Shown: positions 16,513 through 21,482, counted from the stretch's first letter. The stretch is 30,023 nt of DNA from a virus (IMGVR_UViG_2690316318_000018:1-30023), one strand, 5' to 3'. Translations and numbers: made by a program. The notes: generated by a model not told the origin, from the sequence alone.

Positions 16513-16538
16513 CAGAAAAAAGGCCGCTTTCGCGGCCA
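16513..16538 (-). terminator. Rho-independent terminator of the ATPase-protease operon
   Basis: On the minus strand, directly after the protease stop: GGCCGC-GAAA-GCGGCC followed by TTTTTTCTG. Confidence 0.65.
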
Positions 16539-16544
16539 TAAAAA

Positions 16545-18749
16545 TTACGTGTCGAGAGAAATTTGTGTGCGCAGTTGAATAGGATTCAGAATTGTATATC
16601 GCTGGCGAATAACATTATATAAATCAAAGTCTTTTACCCTTACGCTTATTACCATCGCATATTGCATATCAGGGGCTGAAACTCCCTTAACATGGCGCGA
16701 AGAATCTCGGGCATGATACCGTATATCAAAAACTGGATCGCTTAATAATGTATCAGCACTGAACTTTTTGCTTCTGTGCAAACAAGTTTCCCACTTATGA
16801 CCTTCACTCCTACACTCCCTTTCAGTCTTATACTGGCTTTTTTGACCAAAGAAATCATCTGTATCGGTATCGTCAAGGCCGAATCTTGGGCGGAAAGTTA
16901 CCTGCATACCGGCCCTTGTATAGTTTACTGAATGTTCAGGATCTACTGGGGTTTGAATGCATAAAGTAGCGGTAAGCTCAAATGCTTCGTCAAAGGGAAC
17001 ATCAGGGAATGGGATCGGTGCCCTTAAATATTTATTTTTTGCTAATGAACCATAGTAAATTACTGTAGCAGTATCATTTGGACAATCGATTAAAACGTTA
17101 GGATCCTCACTAAACCGTCCCCAACCGATATGTTCACGCGAATATTTTCTTGATGTTTCAGCATGATGAACAAGCAACGCTTTCAATGCAATGGTGTTCA
17201 ATGGAGTTCCTGATAGAGCCGCAACTCCAGCGGCCGTTCTCAATGCTAATGGAGAGGCATAACTGGTTCCTTGAACTCCAACTATAGAACCAAGCAGAGG
17301 GTTGTAAGTGTAAAAAGGCTCGTCGTCGCTTCCACCAAAAATAACACCATCAGGTTTAACGAATCCGGGGCTTCTGCCTGGCCCAATACAGCTATATGGT
17401 GCCCGCCCCCATTTTTCACCGCTACGATCAGCAGCACCAATCGCTAGCGCGTTTACCATATCGGAAGGAGGTTGTATTCTCGCTGCATCACCGTCCTCAT
17501 TGCCATCATTCCCAACAGCAACAGTAAGTAATATCCCATGCTTAGCACAGATTTGGTCTAAAACAGCAGTCCATACATGAACCTCATCATCACCAATTGG
17601 AAGATGAGGACCAATACTTAGATTAGCGAACTTATAGTCACCACTATCAAGAACGGACTGTATTTTCTTAAGGACATCAAATAAATCCCAATTGCCATTG
17701 TCACCTGATGTCGGTGAAAGAACTCTATAATGATCTACATTCATAAACGGTCTTTTAAAAGAAGGTGCATTTTCCTCGACACGTCCGAATAAGAAAGTGG
17801 ATGTCACTTCATTACCGTGCTGCAATAATAATCCGCTTGTTTCTTTGGTGTCTGGATACACGTATTCCGTAACCCAATTACTCAAGTCAGCTGTCCCCAA
17901 GCCACCATCAAAAATGGCAATACGTTCGGATTCAAGAACAGCTTTAGAATTAGGGAGCTCCGGTGTAACTATATTAGATAACTTTCTGACAATGTTCGGC
18001 TGAGTACACCTGAGAGACGGCATCGGCCGCACAACGCGGATTAATGAAAAATCGAGTGTTTTTTTCATATCTTCAGGTCGCGCGTGTGCAACGATGAAAG
18101 TCAGCCCACCAACTTGGATTCTACTTTTGTAATCAACAGAGACATCATATTGTGCCGCATAGCTAATATAGGCTTTAACGATATCATCGTCTTCAACCCC
18201 AGCATGAAGAACCACTTCAAATTTTATCAAATCACTTTTCGCATGCTCAAAATTGCGTGCTCTCTCTTTTCCTTCAAAAAAGCTAACACTTTCAATTTCG
18301 ATCAAATCCTTTTGTACGCCCTTCGGAGCTGTAGGGGAATTTAAAATTTCCTTAAATCTTATAACGGCATCATCATCACCGCTAACAAACAGTTGCGCCG
18401 TTACTAAGTCCTTATTCTGATCGCACTGACGTGCCGCTTTCCGTGGGCGAATGATTACCTGACGGCTGCCGACATCCCGTAAACCTGTCGCTCTAAGCAA
18501 TCCTTCCGGAAAGTAGCTTTTACCCAAAAACGCTGGGTGTAAAGTTAAATTGAATACACTCTCCCCCCTTGGCTTAGCCGCATCATCCAAACTGCGAAAG
18601 CGTGAGAGTAAAGTATCAATCTCTGGGTTTAAATGCTCCCTTACTTCTTCAAGAGTATAGGGATAGCGCTTACCATCCCTTCCTTTAGGCAAAGGTTCCT
18701 TTTTTGTCAGAACATGACCGTTACCTAAAAGTAAGTTCCTTTCCATCAT
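16545..18749 (-). CDS. Subtilisin-like serine protease (peptidase S8 family) with ~270-aa N-terminal and ~230-aa C-terminal domains of unknown function
   Basis: 734-aa ORF. S8 catalytic motifs in canonical D-H-N-S order: …RIAIFDGGLG… (Asp ~281), …LLQHGNEVTS… (His ~311), …VAVGNDGNE… (oxyanion Asn ~414), …GVQGTSYASP… (Ser ~496). Start overlaps the upstream ATPase stop (ATGA). AT-rich codon usage. Confidence 0.85.
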   Translation of the reverse strand: MMERNLLLGNGHVLTKKEPLPKGRDGKRYPYTLEEVREHLNPEIDTLLSRFRSLDDAAKPRGESVFNLTLHPAFLGKSYFPEGLLRATGLRDVGSRQVIIRPRKAARQCDQNKDLVTAQLFVSGDDDAVIRFKEILNSPTAPKGVQKDLIEIESVSFFEGKERARNFEHAKSDLIKFEVVLHAGVEDDDIVKAYISYAAQYDVSVDYKSRIQVGGLTFIVAHARPEDMKKTLDFSLIRVVRPMPSLRCTQPNIVRKLSNIVTPELPNSKAVLESERIAIFDGGLGTADLSNWVTEYVYPDTKETSGLLLQHGNEVTSTFLFGRVEENAPSFKRPFMNVDHYRVLSPTSGDNGNWDLFDVLKKIQSVLDSGDYKFANLSIGPHLPIGDDEVHVWTAVLDQICAKHGILLTVAVGNDGNEDGDAARIQPPSDMVNALAIGAADRSGEKWGRAPYSCIGPGRSPGFVKPDGVIFGGSDDEPFYTYNPLLGSIVGVQGTSYASPLALRTAAGVAALSGTPLNTIALKALLVHHAETSRKYSREHIGWGRFSEDPNVLIDCPNDTATVIYYGSLAKNKYLRAPIPFPDVPFDEAFELTATLCIQTPVDPEHSVNYTRAGMQVTFRPRFGLDDTDTDDFFGQKSQYKTERECRSEGHKWETCLHRSKKFSADTLLSDPVFDIRYHARDSSRHVKGVSAPDMQYAMVISVRVKDFDLYNVIRQRYTILNPIQLRTQISLDT

Positions 18750-19828
18750 TTAATCCCCCACTTTTGTAATTTATTCGCGATTGTTGGATGTGAAACACCA
18801 ACTAATTCAGCTATCTTCCTATTTGAAAAACCGTCAAAATGATATTTAATTATATTGAGATCATTATCGCTAAACTCATCCAATGAAACCCTCTCCGTAA
18901 TTACGGCTTCTATTAATGAGCTTTCAAATGGAATATTTCTAAGTACCTCATTCTTTTTGGAGAAATTCAAAATACGGTTAATGATGGCAAAGGACATGCC
19001 ATCTAATAATGGTGCAAGTTTTTTAGATAGTTCAGGTTCAATATTATGATTGACTAAATATCTATCTATCAGTTCTACTGATGGCATATTAAATTTAAGG
19101 ATGTGCTCAAATCGACGCCAAACAGCCGGATCTAAGATATCAGGGTGATTAGTCGCAGCAACAAGAAGCGAGGTCGCTGGCCACTCATCTATGGTCTGTA
19201 GGAGTACAGTAACTAAACGTTTTAATTCTCCAACGTCCCTGTCATCATCACGTCTTTTTGCAACAGCATCAAATTCATCAAGCAAAAGGACACATGGTTT
19301 CTCTTTGGCATAATCCATAACGGATTTAATATTATTACCTGTTTTTCCCAAAAGAGAACTCATTACAGATGAGAGATCCAATGTTAAAAGAGGTAAATTT
19401 AACTTTGCAGCAAGCCAATGTGCGGACATTGTTTTGCCTACGCCTGGCGGGCCAGAAAGTAAAACCGTCTTCACAGGTTCAAGACCAGCTTTGAACAAAG
19501 AAACCGCATTCTCTCTTTCGTTAACAATTGACTCCAGCTTCTTTGAGATATCCGTATTCCATACAGGTTCTTCAACAATTGCGTTGACAGATGTTTCCTG
19601 CAAAAGGTTTCGTCTGGAGTCTCCATCCACAGGCATAGGAGCCTTACTAGATGCCCCACGTAATACTGTTCCCTCAGCAACTAACGAAGCCAGCTTAGAA
19701 GCTAAAGCCTCATCATTTTTACGGATGTTGTTAATCATCTTTCTGCATAGGAGTGTAAATGCATTTGCGTTGCCTTTGATGCCTTGCTCGATGAGTTTGA
19801 AAAGTTCATCCTCCCTCACGTTTACCAT
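18746..19828 (-). CDS. Classic-clade AAA ATPase with predicted C-terminal helix-turn-helix
   Basis: 360-aa ORF. Walker A LSGPPGVGKT (~126-133), Walker B VLLLDEFD (~180-187), second region of homology …LLVAATNHPDILDPAVWRRFEH… (sensor-1 Asn, Arg fingers). C-terminal segment …SNRKIAELVGVSHPTIANKLQKWG… resembles a LuxR / sigma-70 region-4 type HTH. Confidence 0.85.
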   Translation of the reverse strand: MVNVREDELFKLIEQGIKGNANAFTLLCRKMINNIRKNDEALASKLASLVAEGTVLRGASSKAPMPVDGDSRRNLLQETSVNAIVEEPVWNTDISKKLESIVNERENAVSLFKAGLEPVKTVLLSGPPGVGKTMSAHWLAAKLNLPLLTLDLSSVMSSLLGKTGNNIKSVMDYAKEKPCVLLLDEFDAVAKRRDDDRDVGELKRLVTVLLQTIDEWPATSLLVAATNHPDILDPAVWRRFEHILKFNMPSVELIDRYLVNHNIEPELSKKLAPLLDGMSFAIINRILNFSKKNEVLRNIPFESSLIEAVITERVSLDEFSDNDLNIIKYHFDGFSNRKIAELVGVSHPTIANKLQKWGIK

Positions 19829-20132
19829 AAAACCCCCAATAAAACATCAGCTTGTGTAAGCTGGTAACTACATTAATGAAAATCATTGACTAATGTTACC
19901 ACTCTTGCTGGCGTAATTCAAAGAGTATCCTTACTTTTTTACTGTATGGATAATCAGCATAAAATCTATCCAGTTGGGTTACTCGAACATACTGTCAATA
20001 CTTGTTTCCAACGATTGATCAGTTCTACAGTTTTATCTCCTTCACTTGTGTTGGCAGCATGCTTATTCCTGAACCAGCTCGATTACTTGGCCATTTGAGA
20101 AAGATGTGTAGATCTTCTGATGGTTTGTATTG

Positions 20133-20164
20133 GAACGGGGTGTATAGTGATTTGCACCCCGTTC
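20133..20164. other. 10-bp perfect inverted repeat (hairpin or operator candidate) between parR and the ATPase operon
   Basis: GAACGGGGTG-N12-CACCCCGTTC, followed on the plus strand by TTTATGTT. Confidence 0.4.
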
Positions 20165-20206
20165 TTTATGTTATGGGATTGGTGGCAGGGCGAATACGCC
20201 CTGATG

Positions 20207-20518
20207 TTATTCAGGAAATAACGCCCGGATATTTCCGGCCATCTGACTGGTTATCTGTGCGGTTGATACTGGCTGTGACGCGGGGCGTTCTGTCTTGGTT
20301 TGTGTCACTGATAACACCTCATCATCAGCCCATGCAGCCAGTCGGTAAGCCTCTGCCGGATTCATTTTCAGAAGTGCCAGCCCGGCCAGAAAAGCCACGC
20401 GTTGGCCGCTTTTGCGGGCTTCTGGTGTAAGGCTGTCCAGCCAGGCGCATGCTTCTCCTTCGTTCTTGACGGCGGTGGGCTTCAGATAGAAACTTATCCG
20501 TCTGGTTGGAGTCGTCAT
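20207..20518 (-). CDS. parR: ParR-like centromere-binding partition protein
   Basis: The track ORF is N-terminally overextended; starting at the internal Met (MTTPTRRISFYLKP…) gives 103 aa. Pattern …ISFYLKP…LDSLTPEARKSGQRVAFLAGLAL…IRALFPE resembles plasmid R1 ParR as I recall it. Starts 5 nt after the parM stop. Confidence 0.7.
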   Translation of the reverse strand: MTTPTRRISFYLKPTAVKNEGEACAWLDSLTPEARKSGQRVAFLAGLALLKMNPAEAYRLAAWADDEVLSVTQTKTERPASQPVSTAQITSQMAGNIRALFPE

Positions 20519-20522
20519 TGGT

Positions 20523-21482
20523 TTACTCCTTGTCCATTGCGTACAGCCCATTAACCAGAGCAAACTGTGGCACCCCGTCCGCGATGAAAGTCGCATTAAC
20601 TCCGCAGGCTTCGCGGATAGCGGGTGCCACAATCTCCGCCCCTCCACCGACAACCATCACCCGCCCGTAACCCGAAAAAACCGCCAGCGCGCGGATCACG
20701 CGTTGTTTCAGTGTTTCCTCCTTTTCACGAATAACCGCCATCAGGCTGTCGTAATGCGCGTCATTGTGGATGTGCTGGCGCAGCCAGGCTTCATCATAGC
20801 GATGTTCGATAATGGTATTGGCGATGTGGTGACTGGTGCGCATACCGTTAGTGGCCATCACCGACAGCACGGCATCGGCCATCAGAGAAACGCCTACGTG
20901 TGGATCGCAAAACACCTGGCTGATACCTGCCAGTTGCCCCTGAACCTTTGCCACATCCAGCGTGGTTCCGCCCAAATCCACAATCAGCAGGGATTCAAAC
21001 GGACTCATGTCAGCCAGTGCTTTAAAGCCAGCCGGAATGGATTCAGGCATAACCCGCACGTTACGGATAGTGAATGCTTCGCCGTTCTGGTACTCCACCG
21101 GGCGCATAACGTTCGCTTTTTTGCGGTTGATGTTGGCCATGTCCGGCTGTGCGTTTGTGTCGAAATACTCGCTCAGTGGCAGGGTGACAACCACATCCAC
21201 CTCCTGTGGTGTGATGCCTGATTTGACCAGCGCGTGATGAATGGCAATGACATTCACATCGCTGTATTGGTATTGCGTGTCGGTCGTCTGGACAAAGCGA
21301 TCGCTGACCGGATCAAAACCATAGCGCACGCCATCAAGCATGTAGTTCGCGGGCTGCGTGCCACCGAACGGCGCAGACCATTCCGACTTGAAGCTGTTCG
21401 GGCTGATGGCGTTGCGGCGTTCGCCGTTCTCAGTCCATGCCAGCTTGATGTTGGTGGAGCCGTCGTCGATACAAATTTTCAT
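20523..21482 (-). CDS. parM: ParM/StbA-like actin-family partition ATPase
   Basis: 319-aa ORF. N-terminus MKICIDDGSTNIKLAW…ISPNSFK…YQYSDVNVIAIHHAL…VMPESIPAG…LIVDLGGTTLD… closely parallels plasmid R1 ParM (…FIDDGSTNIKLQW…ISPNSFK…WQYSDVNVVAVHHAL…VMPESIPAG…) as recalled from memory. Confidence 0.85.
   Translation of the reverse strand: MKICIDDGSTNIKLAWTENGERRNAISPNSFKSEWSAPFGGTQPANYMLDGVRYGFDPVSDRFVQTTDTQYQYSDVNVIAIHHALVKSGITPQEVDVVVTLPLSEYFDTNAQPDMANINRKKANVMRPVEYQNGEAFTIRNVRVMPESIPAGFKALADMSPFESLLIVDLGGTTLDVAKVQGQLAGISQVFCDPHVGVSLMADAVLSVMATNGMRTSHHIANTIIEHRYDEAWLRQHIHNDAHYDSLMAVIREKEETLKQRVIRALAVFSGYGRVMVVGGGAEIVAPAIREACGVNATFIADGVPQFALVNGLYAMDKE

What the first reader, a model, noticed from the sequence alone, without database searches (positions are those of the whole stretch)
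18746..19828. Unusual architecture: classic-clade AAA module fused to a C-terminal LuxR/sigma-70-region-4-like HTH
Seen in sequence: Walker A, Walker B and a canonical second region of homology (…AATNHPDILDPAVWRRFEH…) indicate the classic AAA clade (protein remodelling/unfoldase type) rather than an STAND- or ABC-type ATPase often found in defence systems. The last ~50 residues (…FSNRKIAELVGVSHPTIANKLQKWG…) look like a DNA-binding HTH. Inference: the ATPase may autoregulate the operon or sense nucleic acid; the flanking ~270-aa N-terminal and ~230-aa C-terminal regions of the partner protease are unassigned and could be prodomain or target-recognition domains.
Basis: inference. Interest (0 to 1): 0.5.

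Follow-up and report, generated by a model that had tools for sequence, protein, structure and literature searches.

The report
IetA defence ATPase with self-regulating HTH
The gene is the ATPase half (IetA) of the known IetAS toxin-antitoxin/anti-phage pair carried in a P2-like prophage. Its extra C-terminal DNA-binding domain is real, is typical of most of the family, and most likely shuts off the pair's own promoter.

Summary
ORF 18746-19828 (-) encodes a 360-aa classic-clade AAA ATPase with Walker A, Walker B and a second region of homology. After an ordinary four-helix lid it has a separate three-helix HTH (residues ~319-358).

It is not an orphan oddity. It is IetA, and the overlapping downstream 734-aa S8 protease is IetS. 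IetAS is a known toxin-antitoxin and abortive-infection system, here sitting in the gpA-portal defence hotspot of a P2-like E. coli prophage.

The HTH is standard in this IetA lineage: 91 of 101 homologues match Pfam HTH_23, and the Gao-type IteA has it. The founding pTiC58 IetA lacks it.

New here is a 42-bp inverted repeat (GTGGTAAC-N26-GTTACCAG, 19861-19902) over the predicted ietA promoter. TGG-anchored repeats of this kind occur upstream of 47 of 78 genomic and 28 of 67 viral homologues, against 1-3% of controls. Their half-site sequence changes with the HTH recognition helix (HPT-TGGTA, RDT-TGGAC, RET-TGGAA).

This argues for antitoxin-style autorepression. It is computational only. The system is known and interest is moderate.

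The parts
18746..19828 (-). ietA: 360-aa AAA ATPase, the antitoxin/regulator half of IetAS
   Evidence: ORF. PADLOC IetA PDLC02196 E 3.6e-89 covers residues 7-356. NCBIfam IteA scores 253 bits, below the equivalog cut-off of 510.
19670..19828 (-). IetA N-terminal helical region (residues 1-53), function unassigned
   Evidence: Three helices, 6-18, 21-36 and 40-52, in the model. G16 and G19 are invariant.
19610..19639 (-). Conserved linear motif PMPVDGDSRR (residues 64-73) in a loop predicted to be disordered
   Evidence: P66 and D68 are invariant; V67, D70, S71 and R72 are >=90% conserved. Segment 54-69 has pLDDT <50. The motif is also present in Acidovorax IteA. Its role is inferred only.
19079..19501 (-). 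AAA alpha/beta core (residues 110-250). Contains Walker A (19430-19453), pore loop 1 MSSLLGKTG (19337-19363), Walker B (19268-19288) and the second region of homology with R238/R239 (19103-19159)
   Evidence: Pfam AAA 122-247, E 1e-30. Alignment to p97 D1/D2. Coordinates verified.
18890..19078 (-). Ordinary AAA lid (small helical subdomain, residues 251-313)
   Evidence: Four helices at 251-260, 265-274, 280-296 and 301-313, pLDDT about 90.
18755..18874 (-). C-terminal three-helix HTH (residues 319-358). The recognition helix begins at S346-H347-P348-T349
   Evidence: Helices 321-331, 336-343 and 347-356. HTH_50 E 4.6e-6. HTH_23 in 91 of 101 homologues. Profile hits to the DeoR and TyrR HTH structures.
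16545..18749 (-). ietS: 734-aa S8 (subtilase) protease, the toxin/effector. Its start overlaps the ietA stop by 4 nt (ATGA)
   Evidence: ORF. PADLOC IetS 6.6e-41. Pfam Peptidase_S8 288-544. D281, H340, N414 and S496 are invariant. The overlap was verified.
18000..18749 (-). IetS N-terminal region (residues 1-250): two beta-alpha-beta-beta-alpha-beta units, propeptide-like
   Evidence: DSSP of the model, pLDDT 85.3 and pTM 0.88. The best fold match spans a pro-form subtilase including its N-propeptide (3afg, 582 aligned columns). The prodomain role is inferred.
17112..17942 (-). IetS S8 catalytic domain (residues ~270-546)
16575..17087 (-). IetS C-terminal beta-sandwich domain (residues ~555-725)
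   Evidence: The model is all-beta here. The best fold matches (Tk-SP, KP-43, fervidolysin) carry C-terminal beta domains.
19861..19902 (.). Predicted IetA operator: a 42-bp inverted repeat, GTGGTAAC (19895-19902, - strand) - N26 - GTTACCAG (19861-19868)
   Evidence: It is the only such pair in the 30-kb window. Both half-sites stay at fixed positions in eight relatives while the spacer diverges.
19893..19921 (-). Predicted ietAS promoter: -35 TTGAAT (19916-19921), 17-nt spacer, extended -10 TGgTAACAT (-10 hexamer 19893-19898), overlapping the left half-site
   Evidence: Read from the sequence and conserved in position in relatives. It scores 8 of 12, below the scan tool's cut-off of 9, so it is an inference.
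16522..16537 (-). Terminator-like hairpin GGCCGCGAAAGCGGCC followed by a T-run, 8 nt after the ietS stop; the end of the operon

Best explanation
The two overlapping genes are an IetAS module, a mobile two-gene toxin-antitoxin and abortive-infection defence cassette. It sits in the gpA-portal hotspot of a P2-like E. coli prophage. IetS is a pro-subtilase-like S8 protease, the toxic effector. IetA is a classic-clade AAA ATPase that keeps IetS harmless.

IetA carries its own three-helix HTH after a normal AAA lid. The HTH most likely binds a 42-bp inverted repeat (GTGGTAAC-N26-GTTACCAG) that overlaps the ietAS promoter. IetA would therefore repress its own operon, as type II antitoxins do.

The half-sites lie about 34 bp apart centre to centre in the window and about 31-32 bp in most relatives, roughly three helical turns, on one face of the DNA. 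They are probably read by two HTHs held far apart on an IetA oligomer rather than by a compact dimer.

Shown by computation: the domain architecture, family membership, genomic context, the conserved repeat, and its covariation with the recognition helix.

Inferred: DNA binding itself, repression, the oligomer geometry, and the downstream step. That step is that a phage trigger disturbs IetA, which frees IetS and derepresses the operon.
For: Identity:
- PADLOC IetA 3.6e-89 and IetS 6.6e-41.
- ietS lies directly downstream of ietA in 80 of 81 held loci, that is 79 of the 80 genomic relatives plus the E2348/69 copy, and in 65 of 67 viral loci.
- The ATPase motifs and the D281/H340/S496 triad are intact.

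Context:
- The same locus is in 32 of 5426 complete E. coli genomes, including E2348/69, between portal and ParR/ParM/gpA of a P2-like prophage.
- This is the gpA-gpQ hotspot described in PMC9122126.
- Pantoea, Serratia, Limnobaculum and Rosenbergiella relatives sit right after gpA.

HTH.

Operator:
- GTGGTAA occurs in 8 of 15 clade-1 upstream regions against a background of 0.010 (p 6e-13).
- TGGACTA occurs in 33 of 63 clade-2 regions against 0.021 (p 2e-38).
- Neither motif is enriched upstream of the other clade.
- TGG-anchored inverted repeats (span 36-44, arms >=6/8 identical) occur in 47 of 78 upstream regions, against 1.4% of shuffles and 3.5% of random windows.
- This was replicated in 28 of 67 viral upstream regions against 1.2% of shuffles.

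Recognition code, counted as repeat arms:
- RDT with TGGAC, 60 of 74.
- RET with TGGAA, 9 of 10.
- HPT with TGGTA, 8 of 12.
- RPT with TGGTA, 3 of 4.
- AHTT with TGGTG, 8 of 8 in the viral set.

Position and footprint:
- In many clade-2 loci a TTGACA lies inside the spacer just before the right half-site, and a TAnnnT follows it.
- Half-sites are fixed and the spacer is free in eight relatives of 55-100% protein identity.

Literature:
- IetA acts as antitoxin and IetS as toxin, and the anti-phage mechanism is 'unknown' (PMC13069673).
- The system acts by abortive infection and is triggered by a phage protein (bioRxiv 2022.08.27.505566).
Against: - There is no experiment. DNA binding by IetA was not tested, and I found no paper mentioning an HTH in IetA.
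- Only about 40-60% of loci show the repeat under my criteria.
- Many loci are related, so the counts are not independent events.
- The promoter hexamers are predictions. In the window they score below the scan tool's cut-off.
- The left half-site TGGTAACAT also looks like an extended -10 element, so part of its conservation could be promoter function.
- The window protein's own Pfam HTH score is just under threshold.
- The HTH fold was judged from secondary structure and sequence profiles, not from a fold search of the isolated domain.
- A three-turn half-site spacing is unusual for HTH repressors.
Confidence: 0.72

Rival explanations
1. The HTH is a sensor. It binds phage or other foreign nucleic acid, and that binding, rather than promoter control, switches the ATPase and releases the protease.
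For: Phage replication-machinery mutations let phages escape IetAS in one study. The HTH is highly conserved across phyla. The mechanism is unknown.
Against: The recognition helix changes together with a repeat placed at a fixed distance upstream of the system's own gene. This is what a self-operator predicts, not what a sensor of diverse phages predicts. In the 30-kb window only one such site pair exists, at the ietA promoter. The known trigger in the B. cereus system is a protein.
Confidence: 0.1
2. The upstream inverted repeat is not bound by IetA. It is a promoter or 5'-UTR RNA element, or the site of another factor. The HTH-like domain serves protein-protein contacts, for example with IetS.
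For: The left half-site resembles an extended -10 element. Inverted repeats can also form RNA stems. About half of the loci lack the repeat under my criteria. HTH-less IetA proteins exist.
Against: The TGG core is sequence-conserved rather than merely complementary. The variable positions track the residues at the start of the recognition helix. The motif of one clade is absent upstream of the other clade. The repeat travels with the cassette across phyla, plasmids and phages, so a host factor is unlikely. In clade 2 the predicted -35 lies between the arms, so the left arm would not be transcribed. There is no Rfam match.
Confidence: 0.13
3. The C-terminal segment is just the helical lid of the AAA domain. 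This is the refutation case named by the first reader.
For: AAA domains do end in a helical bundle. Pfam's HTH score for this one protein is marginal.
Against: The model shows a complete four-helix lid at 251-313, followed by three extra helices. pTiC58 IetA and the P. aeruginosa homologue end right after the lid, about 30-50 residues shorter. The extra segment matches HTH families in 91 of 101 homologues and matches solved HTH domains.
Confidence: 0.02

Closest known systems
IetAS / IteAS anti-phage system (Gao et al. 2020; NCBIfam NF042959 and NF042956; PADLOC IetA and IetS)
   Same: The same two-gene order, AAA ATPase then S8 protease. Full-length profile matches. An NCBI-annotated IteA from Acidovorax shares the SSLLG pore loop, the PVDGDSR motif and a C-terminal HTH, at 34% identity over residues 8-356.
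   Different: It is below NCBIfam's equivalog cut-offs (253 against 510 bits, and 116 against 900 bits), so it is a different subfamily. The Acidovorax upstream repeat is different (TGATTCA-N15-TGAATCA). Defence by this exact prophage copy was not tested here.
IetA/IetS toxin-antitoxin of Agrobacterium plasmid pTiC58 (Yamamoto et al. 2009, cited)
   Same: An AAA ATPase antitoxin gene immediately upstream of a subtilase toxin gene. 32% identity over residues 8-253.
   Different: pTiC58 IetA is 328 aa and ends after the lid, with no HTH. Its pore loop is the canonical aromatic K-F-M-G, against S-L-L-G here. The original paper could not be read.
Mycoplasma TA132/133 AAA-ATPase/subtilisin-like toxin-antitoxin module (PMC8562856)
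   Same: The same gene pair logic and the antitoxin-toxin behaviour shown in E. coli.
   Different: The sequence was not compared here, and the paper reports no DNA-binding domain.
Type II toxin-antitoxin autoregulation (antitoxin with a DNA-binding domain repressing its own promoter through a palindromic operator)
   Same: The antitoxin gene comes first, it carries a DNA-binding domain, and an inverted repeat overlaps the predicted promoter.
   Different: The antitoxin is a 360-aa AAA ATPase, not a small labile protein. The half-sites are about three helical turns apart instead of one.
Bacterial enhancer-binding proteins of the TyrR/NtrC type (AAA+ domain followed by a C-terminal HTH)
   Same: The same domain order. 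The window's HTH is strikingly like the TyrR DNA-binding domain: SNRKIAELVGVSHPTIANKLQKWGI against STRKLAQRLGVSHTAIANKLKQYGI, profile E 3.2e-6. Pfam HTH_50 and TIGR04381 also hit.
   Different: The AAA module belongs to the classic clade (p97/FtsH/Rpt-like), not the sigma-54 activator clade. There is no sigma-54 contact loop and no partner protease in those proteins. Resemblance in the short HTH may be convergent.
Pro-form subtilases with C-terminal beta domains (Tk-SP 3afg, KP-43 1wmd, fervidolysin 1r6v, PCSK9)
   Same: The best fold matches of the IetS model cover the propeptide, the catalytic domain and the beta domain.
   Different: Sequence identity is 12-17%. IetS has an extra ~170 N-terminal residues, has no recognised secretion context, and is paired with an ATPase.

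Membership tests
IetAS defence / toxin-antitoxin system | AAA ATPase gene immediately upstream of, and co-oriented with, an S8 peptidase gene | tested here: met
   ietA 18746-19828 and ietS 16545-18749 on the - strand, with a 4-nt overlap. The pairing is kept in 80 of 81 held loci, that is 79 of the 80 genomic relatives plus the E2348/69 copy, and in 65 of 67 viral loci.
IetAS defence / toxin-antitoxin system | Both proteins match curated IetA and IetS profiles | tested here: met
   PADLOC IetA PDLC02196 3.6e-89 over the full length; IetS PDLC02197 6.6e-41.
IetAS defence / toxin-antitoxin system | Equivalog of the experimentally validated IteA/IteS (NCBIfam cut-offs) | tested here: not met
   253 bits against 510, and 115.7 bits against 900. 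It is the same family but a different subfamily.
IetAS defence / toxin-antitoxin system | Intact ATPase motifs and serine-protease catalytic residues | tested here: met
   Walker A, Walker B and R238/R239 are invariant. D281, H340, N414 and S496 are invariant.
IetAS defence / toxin-antitoxin system | IetS is toxic, IetA neutralises it, and the pair protects against phage | not testable with these tools
   Known only from the literature on other members.
Classic-clade AAA ATPases | Walker A/B, sensor-1 Asn, second region of homology with two Arg fingers, and closest relatives among p97/FtsH/Rpt/Vps4 | tested here: met
Classic-clade AAA ATPases | Aromatic-hydrophobic-Gly pore loop 1 typical of substrate-threading unfoldases | tested here: not met
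   The loop is S158-L159-L160-G161, with L160 and G161 invariant in 101 homologues. HTH-less relatives have F or Y at this position.
Classic-clade AAA ATPases | Hexameric ring assembly | not testable with these tools
   Only monomer prediction was available.
Simple three-helix HTH DNA-binding domains (Pfam HTH_23 / HTH_50, TyrR- and DeoR-type) | Significant profile match and three-helix topology after the lid | tested here: met
   HTH_23 in 91 of 101 homologues. PDB profile hits at 6.5e-7 and 3.2e-6. Helices 321-331, 336-343 and 347-356. The window protein alone is 0.3 bits under the HTH_50 threshold.
Simple three-helix HTH DNA-binding domains (Pfam HTH_23 / HTH_50, TyrR- and DeoR-type) | Sequence-specific DNA binding | not testable with these tools
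   The support is indirect: covariation of the recognition helix with upstream half-sites.
   GerE 13.0 bits against 23.5; Sigma70_r4_2 15.9 bits against 25.7. Only 19 and 16 of 101 homologues hit these families.
Autoregulated type II-like antitoxin | Palindromic operator overlapping the operon's own promoter | tested here: inconclusive
   The conserved inverted repeat is present and is placed over predicted -35/-10 elements. However, the promoter is predicted only, and neither binding nor repression was tested.
Sigma-54 enhancer-binding proteins (TyrR/NtrC) | AAA+ module of the sigma-54 activator clade | tested here: not met
   No Sigma54_activat match. The best relatives are classic-clade proteins.

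The most novel reading that the evidence does not exclude
IetA is a DNA-mounted switch. A ring of IetA sits on its operator through two HTHs about 100 Å apart. A phage cue that changes the ATPase state, or competes for the HTH, both derepresses the operon and lets the AAA module strip the propeptide-like domain from IetS, arming the protease. The helix/half-site pairs (HPT-TGGTA, RDT-TGGAC, RET-TGGAA, HTT-TGGTG) would then be a natural, swappable recognition code.
Probability: 0.12. Interest if true: 0.7.

Novelty: already known. Interest (0 to 1): 0.38.

Why it matters
IetAS is widespread, in plasmids, prophages and many phyla. A 2026 paper still describes its anti-phage mechanism as unknown.

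Recognising that most IetA proteins carry an HTH gives a concrete, cheap entry point. There is a predicted operator at a fixed position over the promoter, and a predicted residue-to-base code. These can be tested with gel shifts, reporter fusions and helix swaps.

It also warns that cloning ietAS behind foreign promoters, or deleting the C-terminus, may change dosage and toxicity.

For genome annotation, the pair should be labelled IetAS in a P2 hotspot, not 'AAA family ATPase / S8 family peptidase'.

Tried and rejected
- The default repeat finder saw only a small 11-nt repeat and the par terminator in 19800-20210. It missed the 42-bp operator because the arms are short and far apart.
- The narrow HMM of the clade-1 HTH (A2) detected the HTH in only 16 of 79 genomic homologues. 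Reading the C-termini showed that the rest carry a second flavour (GVSRDTIRK), so the low count was a sensitivity artefact.
- One regular expression for extracting the helix failed. It was replaced by alignment columns.
- Rfam found no RNA family in 19700-20300.
- The sigma-70 scan did not call the proposed promoter, which scores 8 of 12.
- The original IetAS paper, PMC2704731, is not held.
- No paper combines 'ietAS' with 'helix-turn-helix' or with structural or regulatory terms.
- Look-up of the Plesiomonas protein P0015 failed, so the locus was fetched from the plasmid collection instead.
- A fold search of the isolated HTH was not possible.
- Rejected readings: STAND/ABC-type ATPase (only weak P-loop-level hits), TRIP13-like CBASS regulator (4e-13 against 3.6e-89 for IetA), and lid-only C-terminus.


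Full report
**The observation.** The ORF at 18746-19828 on the minus strand encodes 360 residues. Translation confirms the following:
- Walker A GPPGVGKT (126-133).
- Walker B LLLDEFD (181-187).
- The second region of homology AATNHPDILDPAVWRRFEH (224-242).
- The C-terminal FSNRKIAELVGVSHPTIANKLQKWG (334-358).

Pfam gives AAA PF00004 at 1e-30. After the IteA model, the best NCBIfam families are PAN, CDC48, FtsH and CdvC. The best solved-structure sequence hits are p97/VCP, NVL, Cdc48, Rix7 and PAN. The AlphaFold model (pLDDT 81.9) matches p97, FtsH, Rpt subunits, Vps4 and spastin best. The classic-clade call is correct. In the p97 alignment, R238 and R239 fall on the two arginine fingers.

**Lid or HTH.** The model has a complete four-helix lid (251-260, 265-274, 280-296, 301-313). 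Three extra helices follow (321-331, 336-343, 347-356).
- The window protein alone is marginal in Pfam: HTH_50 scores 26.7 bits against a cut-off of 27.0, E 4.6e-6.
- Of 101 homologues of 48-91% identity, 91 match HTH_23, 65 match HTH_38, 19 match GerE and 16 match Sigma70_r4_2.
- A profile of the last ~47 residues hits solved HTH domains: B. subtilis DeoR at 6.5e-7, the TyrR DNA-binding domain at 3.2e-6, and LuxR-type regulators near 5e-4.
- R337, H347 and T349 are invariant.

The specific LuxR/sigma-4 label is not earned either.

**What the genes are.** PADLOC assigns the ATPase to IetA (3.6e-89, full length) and the overlapping 734-aa S8 protease (16545-18749) to IetS (6.6e-41). NCBIfam's IteA and IteS models also hit but below their equivalog cut-offs, so this is a different subfamily of the same system.

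According to the literature, IetS is a protease toxin and IetA an ATPase antitoxin. The pair defends against phage, and the mechanism 'remains unknown' (PMC13069673). A Bacillus system acts by abortive infection and is triggered by a phage protein (bioRxiv 2022.08.27.505566). Mycoplasma homologues behave as a toxin-antitoxin pair (PMC8562856). No solved structure of either protein exists in the PDB copy.

**Context.** The 4.5-kb segment is 99.6-99.7% identical to 32 of 5426 complete E. coli genomes, including EPEC E2348/69. There it lies in a P2-like prophage between the portal gene and ParR/ParM/replication endonuclease. It is a low-GC island, 0.40-0.46 against 0.53-0.58 in the flanks. This is the gpA-gpQ, cos-proximal defence hotspot of P2-like phages (PMC9122126).
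- Relatives in Pantoea, Serratia, Limnobaculum and Rosenbergiella sit directly after gpA.
- 188 IMG/VR contigs encode relatives.
- An E. coli ietAS from ECOR52, noted as prophage-borne, has been cloned and gave limited protection alone.

**Is the architecture unusual?** Within this lineage it is not.
- All 79 genomic homologues with a complete ORF, from many phyla, end in an HTH-like motif. There are two main flavours...SQRKIAxxLGVSHPTVGR... and ...SQRxxxELTGVSRDTIRK....
- An NCBI-annotated IteA from Acidovorax and an E. faecium plasmid homologue also have the HTH.
- The founding pTiC58 IetA (328 aa), a P. aeruginosa plasmid homologue (328 aa) and a Bradyrhizobium one do not. They end at or just after the lid.
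- In this small sample the HTH-bearing proteins have pore loop S-S-L-L-G, and the HTH-less ones have an aromatic residue (KFMG, SFLG, SYLG).

Because L160 and G161 are invariant, the lack of an aromatic pore-loop residue looks functional. It weakens the 'unfoldase' inference.

**The operator.** I looked for what the HTH might bind. De novo k-mer counting in the 150 nt upstream of ietA, compared with random windows of the same loci, gave these results:
- GTGGTAA in 8 of 15 clade-1 regions, background 0.010, p 6e-13.
- TGGACTA in 33 of 63 clade-2 regions, background 0.021, p 2e-38.

Site density is 10.7 against 0.77 per kb for clade 1, and 4.1 against 0.09 per kb for clade 2. Neither motif is enriched upstream of the other clade.

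The sites form an inverted pair with a nearly fixed geometry. In clade 2 one site lies near -83 and its inverted partner near -52. In the window the pair is GTGGTAAC (19895-19902, minus strand) and GTTACCAG (19861-19868), 42 bp end to end. It is the only such pair in 30 kb.

TGG-anchored inverted repeats (span 36-44, arms at least 6/8 identical) occur as follows:
- 47 of 78 genomic upstream regions, against 1.4% of shuffles and 3.5% of random windows.
- 28 of 67 distinct viral upstream regions, against 1.2% of shuffles.

**Covariation.** The residues at the start of the recognition helix track the variable part of the half-site. Counted as repeat arms:

| Helix triplet | Half-site | Arms |
|---|---|---|
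| RDT | TGGAC | 60 of 74 |
| RET | TGGAA | 9 of 10 |
| HPT | TGGTA | 8 of 12 (the other 4 are TGGAA) |
| RPT | TGGTA | 3 of 4 |
| RNT | TGGAT | 2 of 2 |
| AHTT | TGGTG | 8 of 8 |

In eight relatives of 55-100% protein identity, both half-sites stay at -74 and -39 while the 26-nt spacer diverges freely.

In many clade-2 loci a TTGACA sits inside the spacer just before the right half-site, and a TAnnnT follows it. In the window and its enteric relatives the left half-site overlaps a likely extended -10 (TGgTAACAT), 17 nt after TTGAAT. This is the layout of a repressor operator.

Caveats:
- The loci are related, so the counts are not independent events.
- About half of the loci lack the repeat under my criteria.
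- The promoters are predicted. The window's scores 8 of 12, below the scan cut-off.
- Nothing here measures binding.

**Geometry (inference).** Half-site centres lie about 34 bp apart in the window and about 31-32 bp in most relatives, roughly three helical turns, so they face the same side of the DNA about 100 Å apart. One locus has sites every 21 nt. This fits HTHs presented by separated protomers of an AAA oligomer better than a compact dimer. Only monomer prediction was available, so this is untested.

**The protease.** The IetS model is confident (pLDDT 85.3, pTM 0.88).
- Residues ~60-245 form two beta-alpha-beta-beta-alpha-beta units.
- Residues 270-546 form the S8 core, with invariant D281, H340, N414 and S496.
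- Residues 555-725 form a beta-sandwich.

The best fold match is the unprocessed ProN-Tk-SP (3afg, 582 aligned columns). KP-43, PCSK9, fervidolysin and pro-subtilisin E follow. Residue ranges of the match were not returned, and processing is untested.

**Most likely mechanism.** IetAS is a self-contained cassette with its own promoter. It sits after two terminator-like hairpins that end the par operon, and it ends in a hairpin plus T-run at 16522-16537.
- IetA keeps IetS inactive. This step is known from the literature on other members.
- Through its HTH, IetA represses the ietAS promoter. This step is supported by the covariation but not demonstrated.
- A phage trigger that disables or titrates IetA would free IetS and derepress the operon. 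This step is inference.

I put 0.72 on the autoregulatory reading. The rivals are a nucleic-acid sensor (0.10), a repeat not bound by IetA (0.13), and lid only (0.02).

**Novelty and verdict.** The system is known, and this subfamily is already covered by a PADLOC model. The 'unusual architecture' is the family norm. What I could not find in the searchable literature is any mention of the IetA HTH or of an operator. The predicted operator and recognition code are a modest, testable addition to a system whose mechanism is open. Interest is 0.38.

Noticed in passing
window 19942-19957 (- strand), 114-129 nt upstream of the ietA ATG: A second conserved block, CTGATTATCCATACAG(TAAAA), is kept in all six Enterobacterales relatives while its surroundings diverge. 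It fits CTG-N10-CAG and matches 12 of 16 positions of the LexA SOS-box consensus (consensus from my own knowledge). It could place ietAS under SOS control in P2-like prophages.
   Followed up: partly
window 19610-19639 (IetA residues 64-73): The motif PMPVDGDSRR is nearly invariant (P66 and D68 invariant) yet lies in the only segment the model predicts as disordered. It is also present in Acidovorax IteA. It might be a docking or pseudo-substrate segment for IetS. This is untested.
   Followed up: no
window 19337-19363 (IetA residues 156-164): Pore loop 1 is M-S-S-L-L-G-K-T-G with no aromatic residue, and is almost invariant. In the few proteins checked, HTH-bearing IetAs have SSLLG and HTH-less ones have F or Y at this position.
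   Followed up: partly
window 20207-21482 (- strand): A ParM-like actin ATPase (20523-21482) and a small 'plasmid partitioning/stability' protein (annotated at 20207-20518 in E2348/69) lie between gpA and ietAS, inside an integrated P2-like prophage that also has an integrase. Close relatives in other genera lack them and place ietAS directly after gpA.
   Followed up: no
window 20132-20165 and 20186-20203: Two strong hairpins sit right after the par genes, one of 13 pairs and one of 7 pairs. They are probably the par operon terminators and separate it from the ietAS promoter.
   Followed up: no
window 19848-19863 (- strand): A small perfect palindrome, CAGCTT-ACAC-AAGCTG, abuts the right operator half-site, 20 nt before the ietA start. 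It is not conserved in relatives.
   Followed up: partly
L093 (E. faecium plasmid pA15023_P1) 2370-2490: Upstream of an HTH-bearing ietA there are several GGAACAA/GAGAACAA repeats and one inverted copy. A TIR-domain gene sits immediately upstream.
   Followed up: no
L082 (Acidovorax plasmid p1-T1): The NCBI-annotated iteAS pair lies between an integrase gene and a Shedu nuclease gene, a small defence island. Its upstream repeat, TGATTCA-N15-TGAATCA, differs from the TGG-type operators.
   Followed up: no
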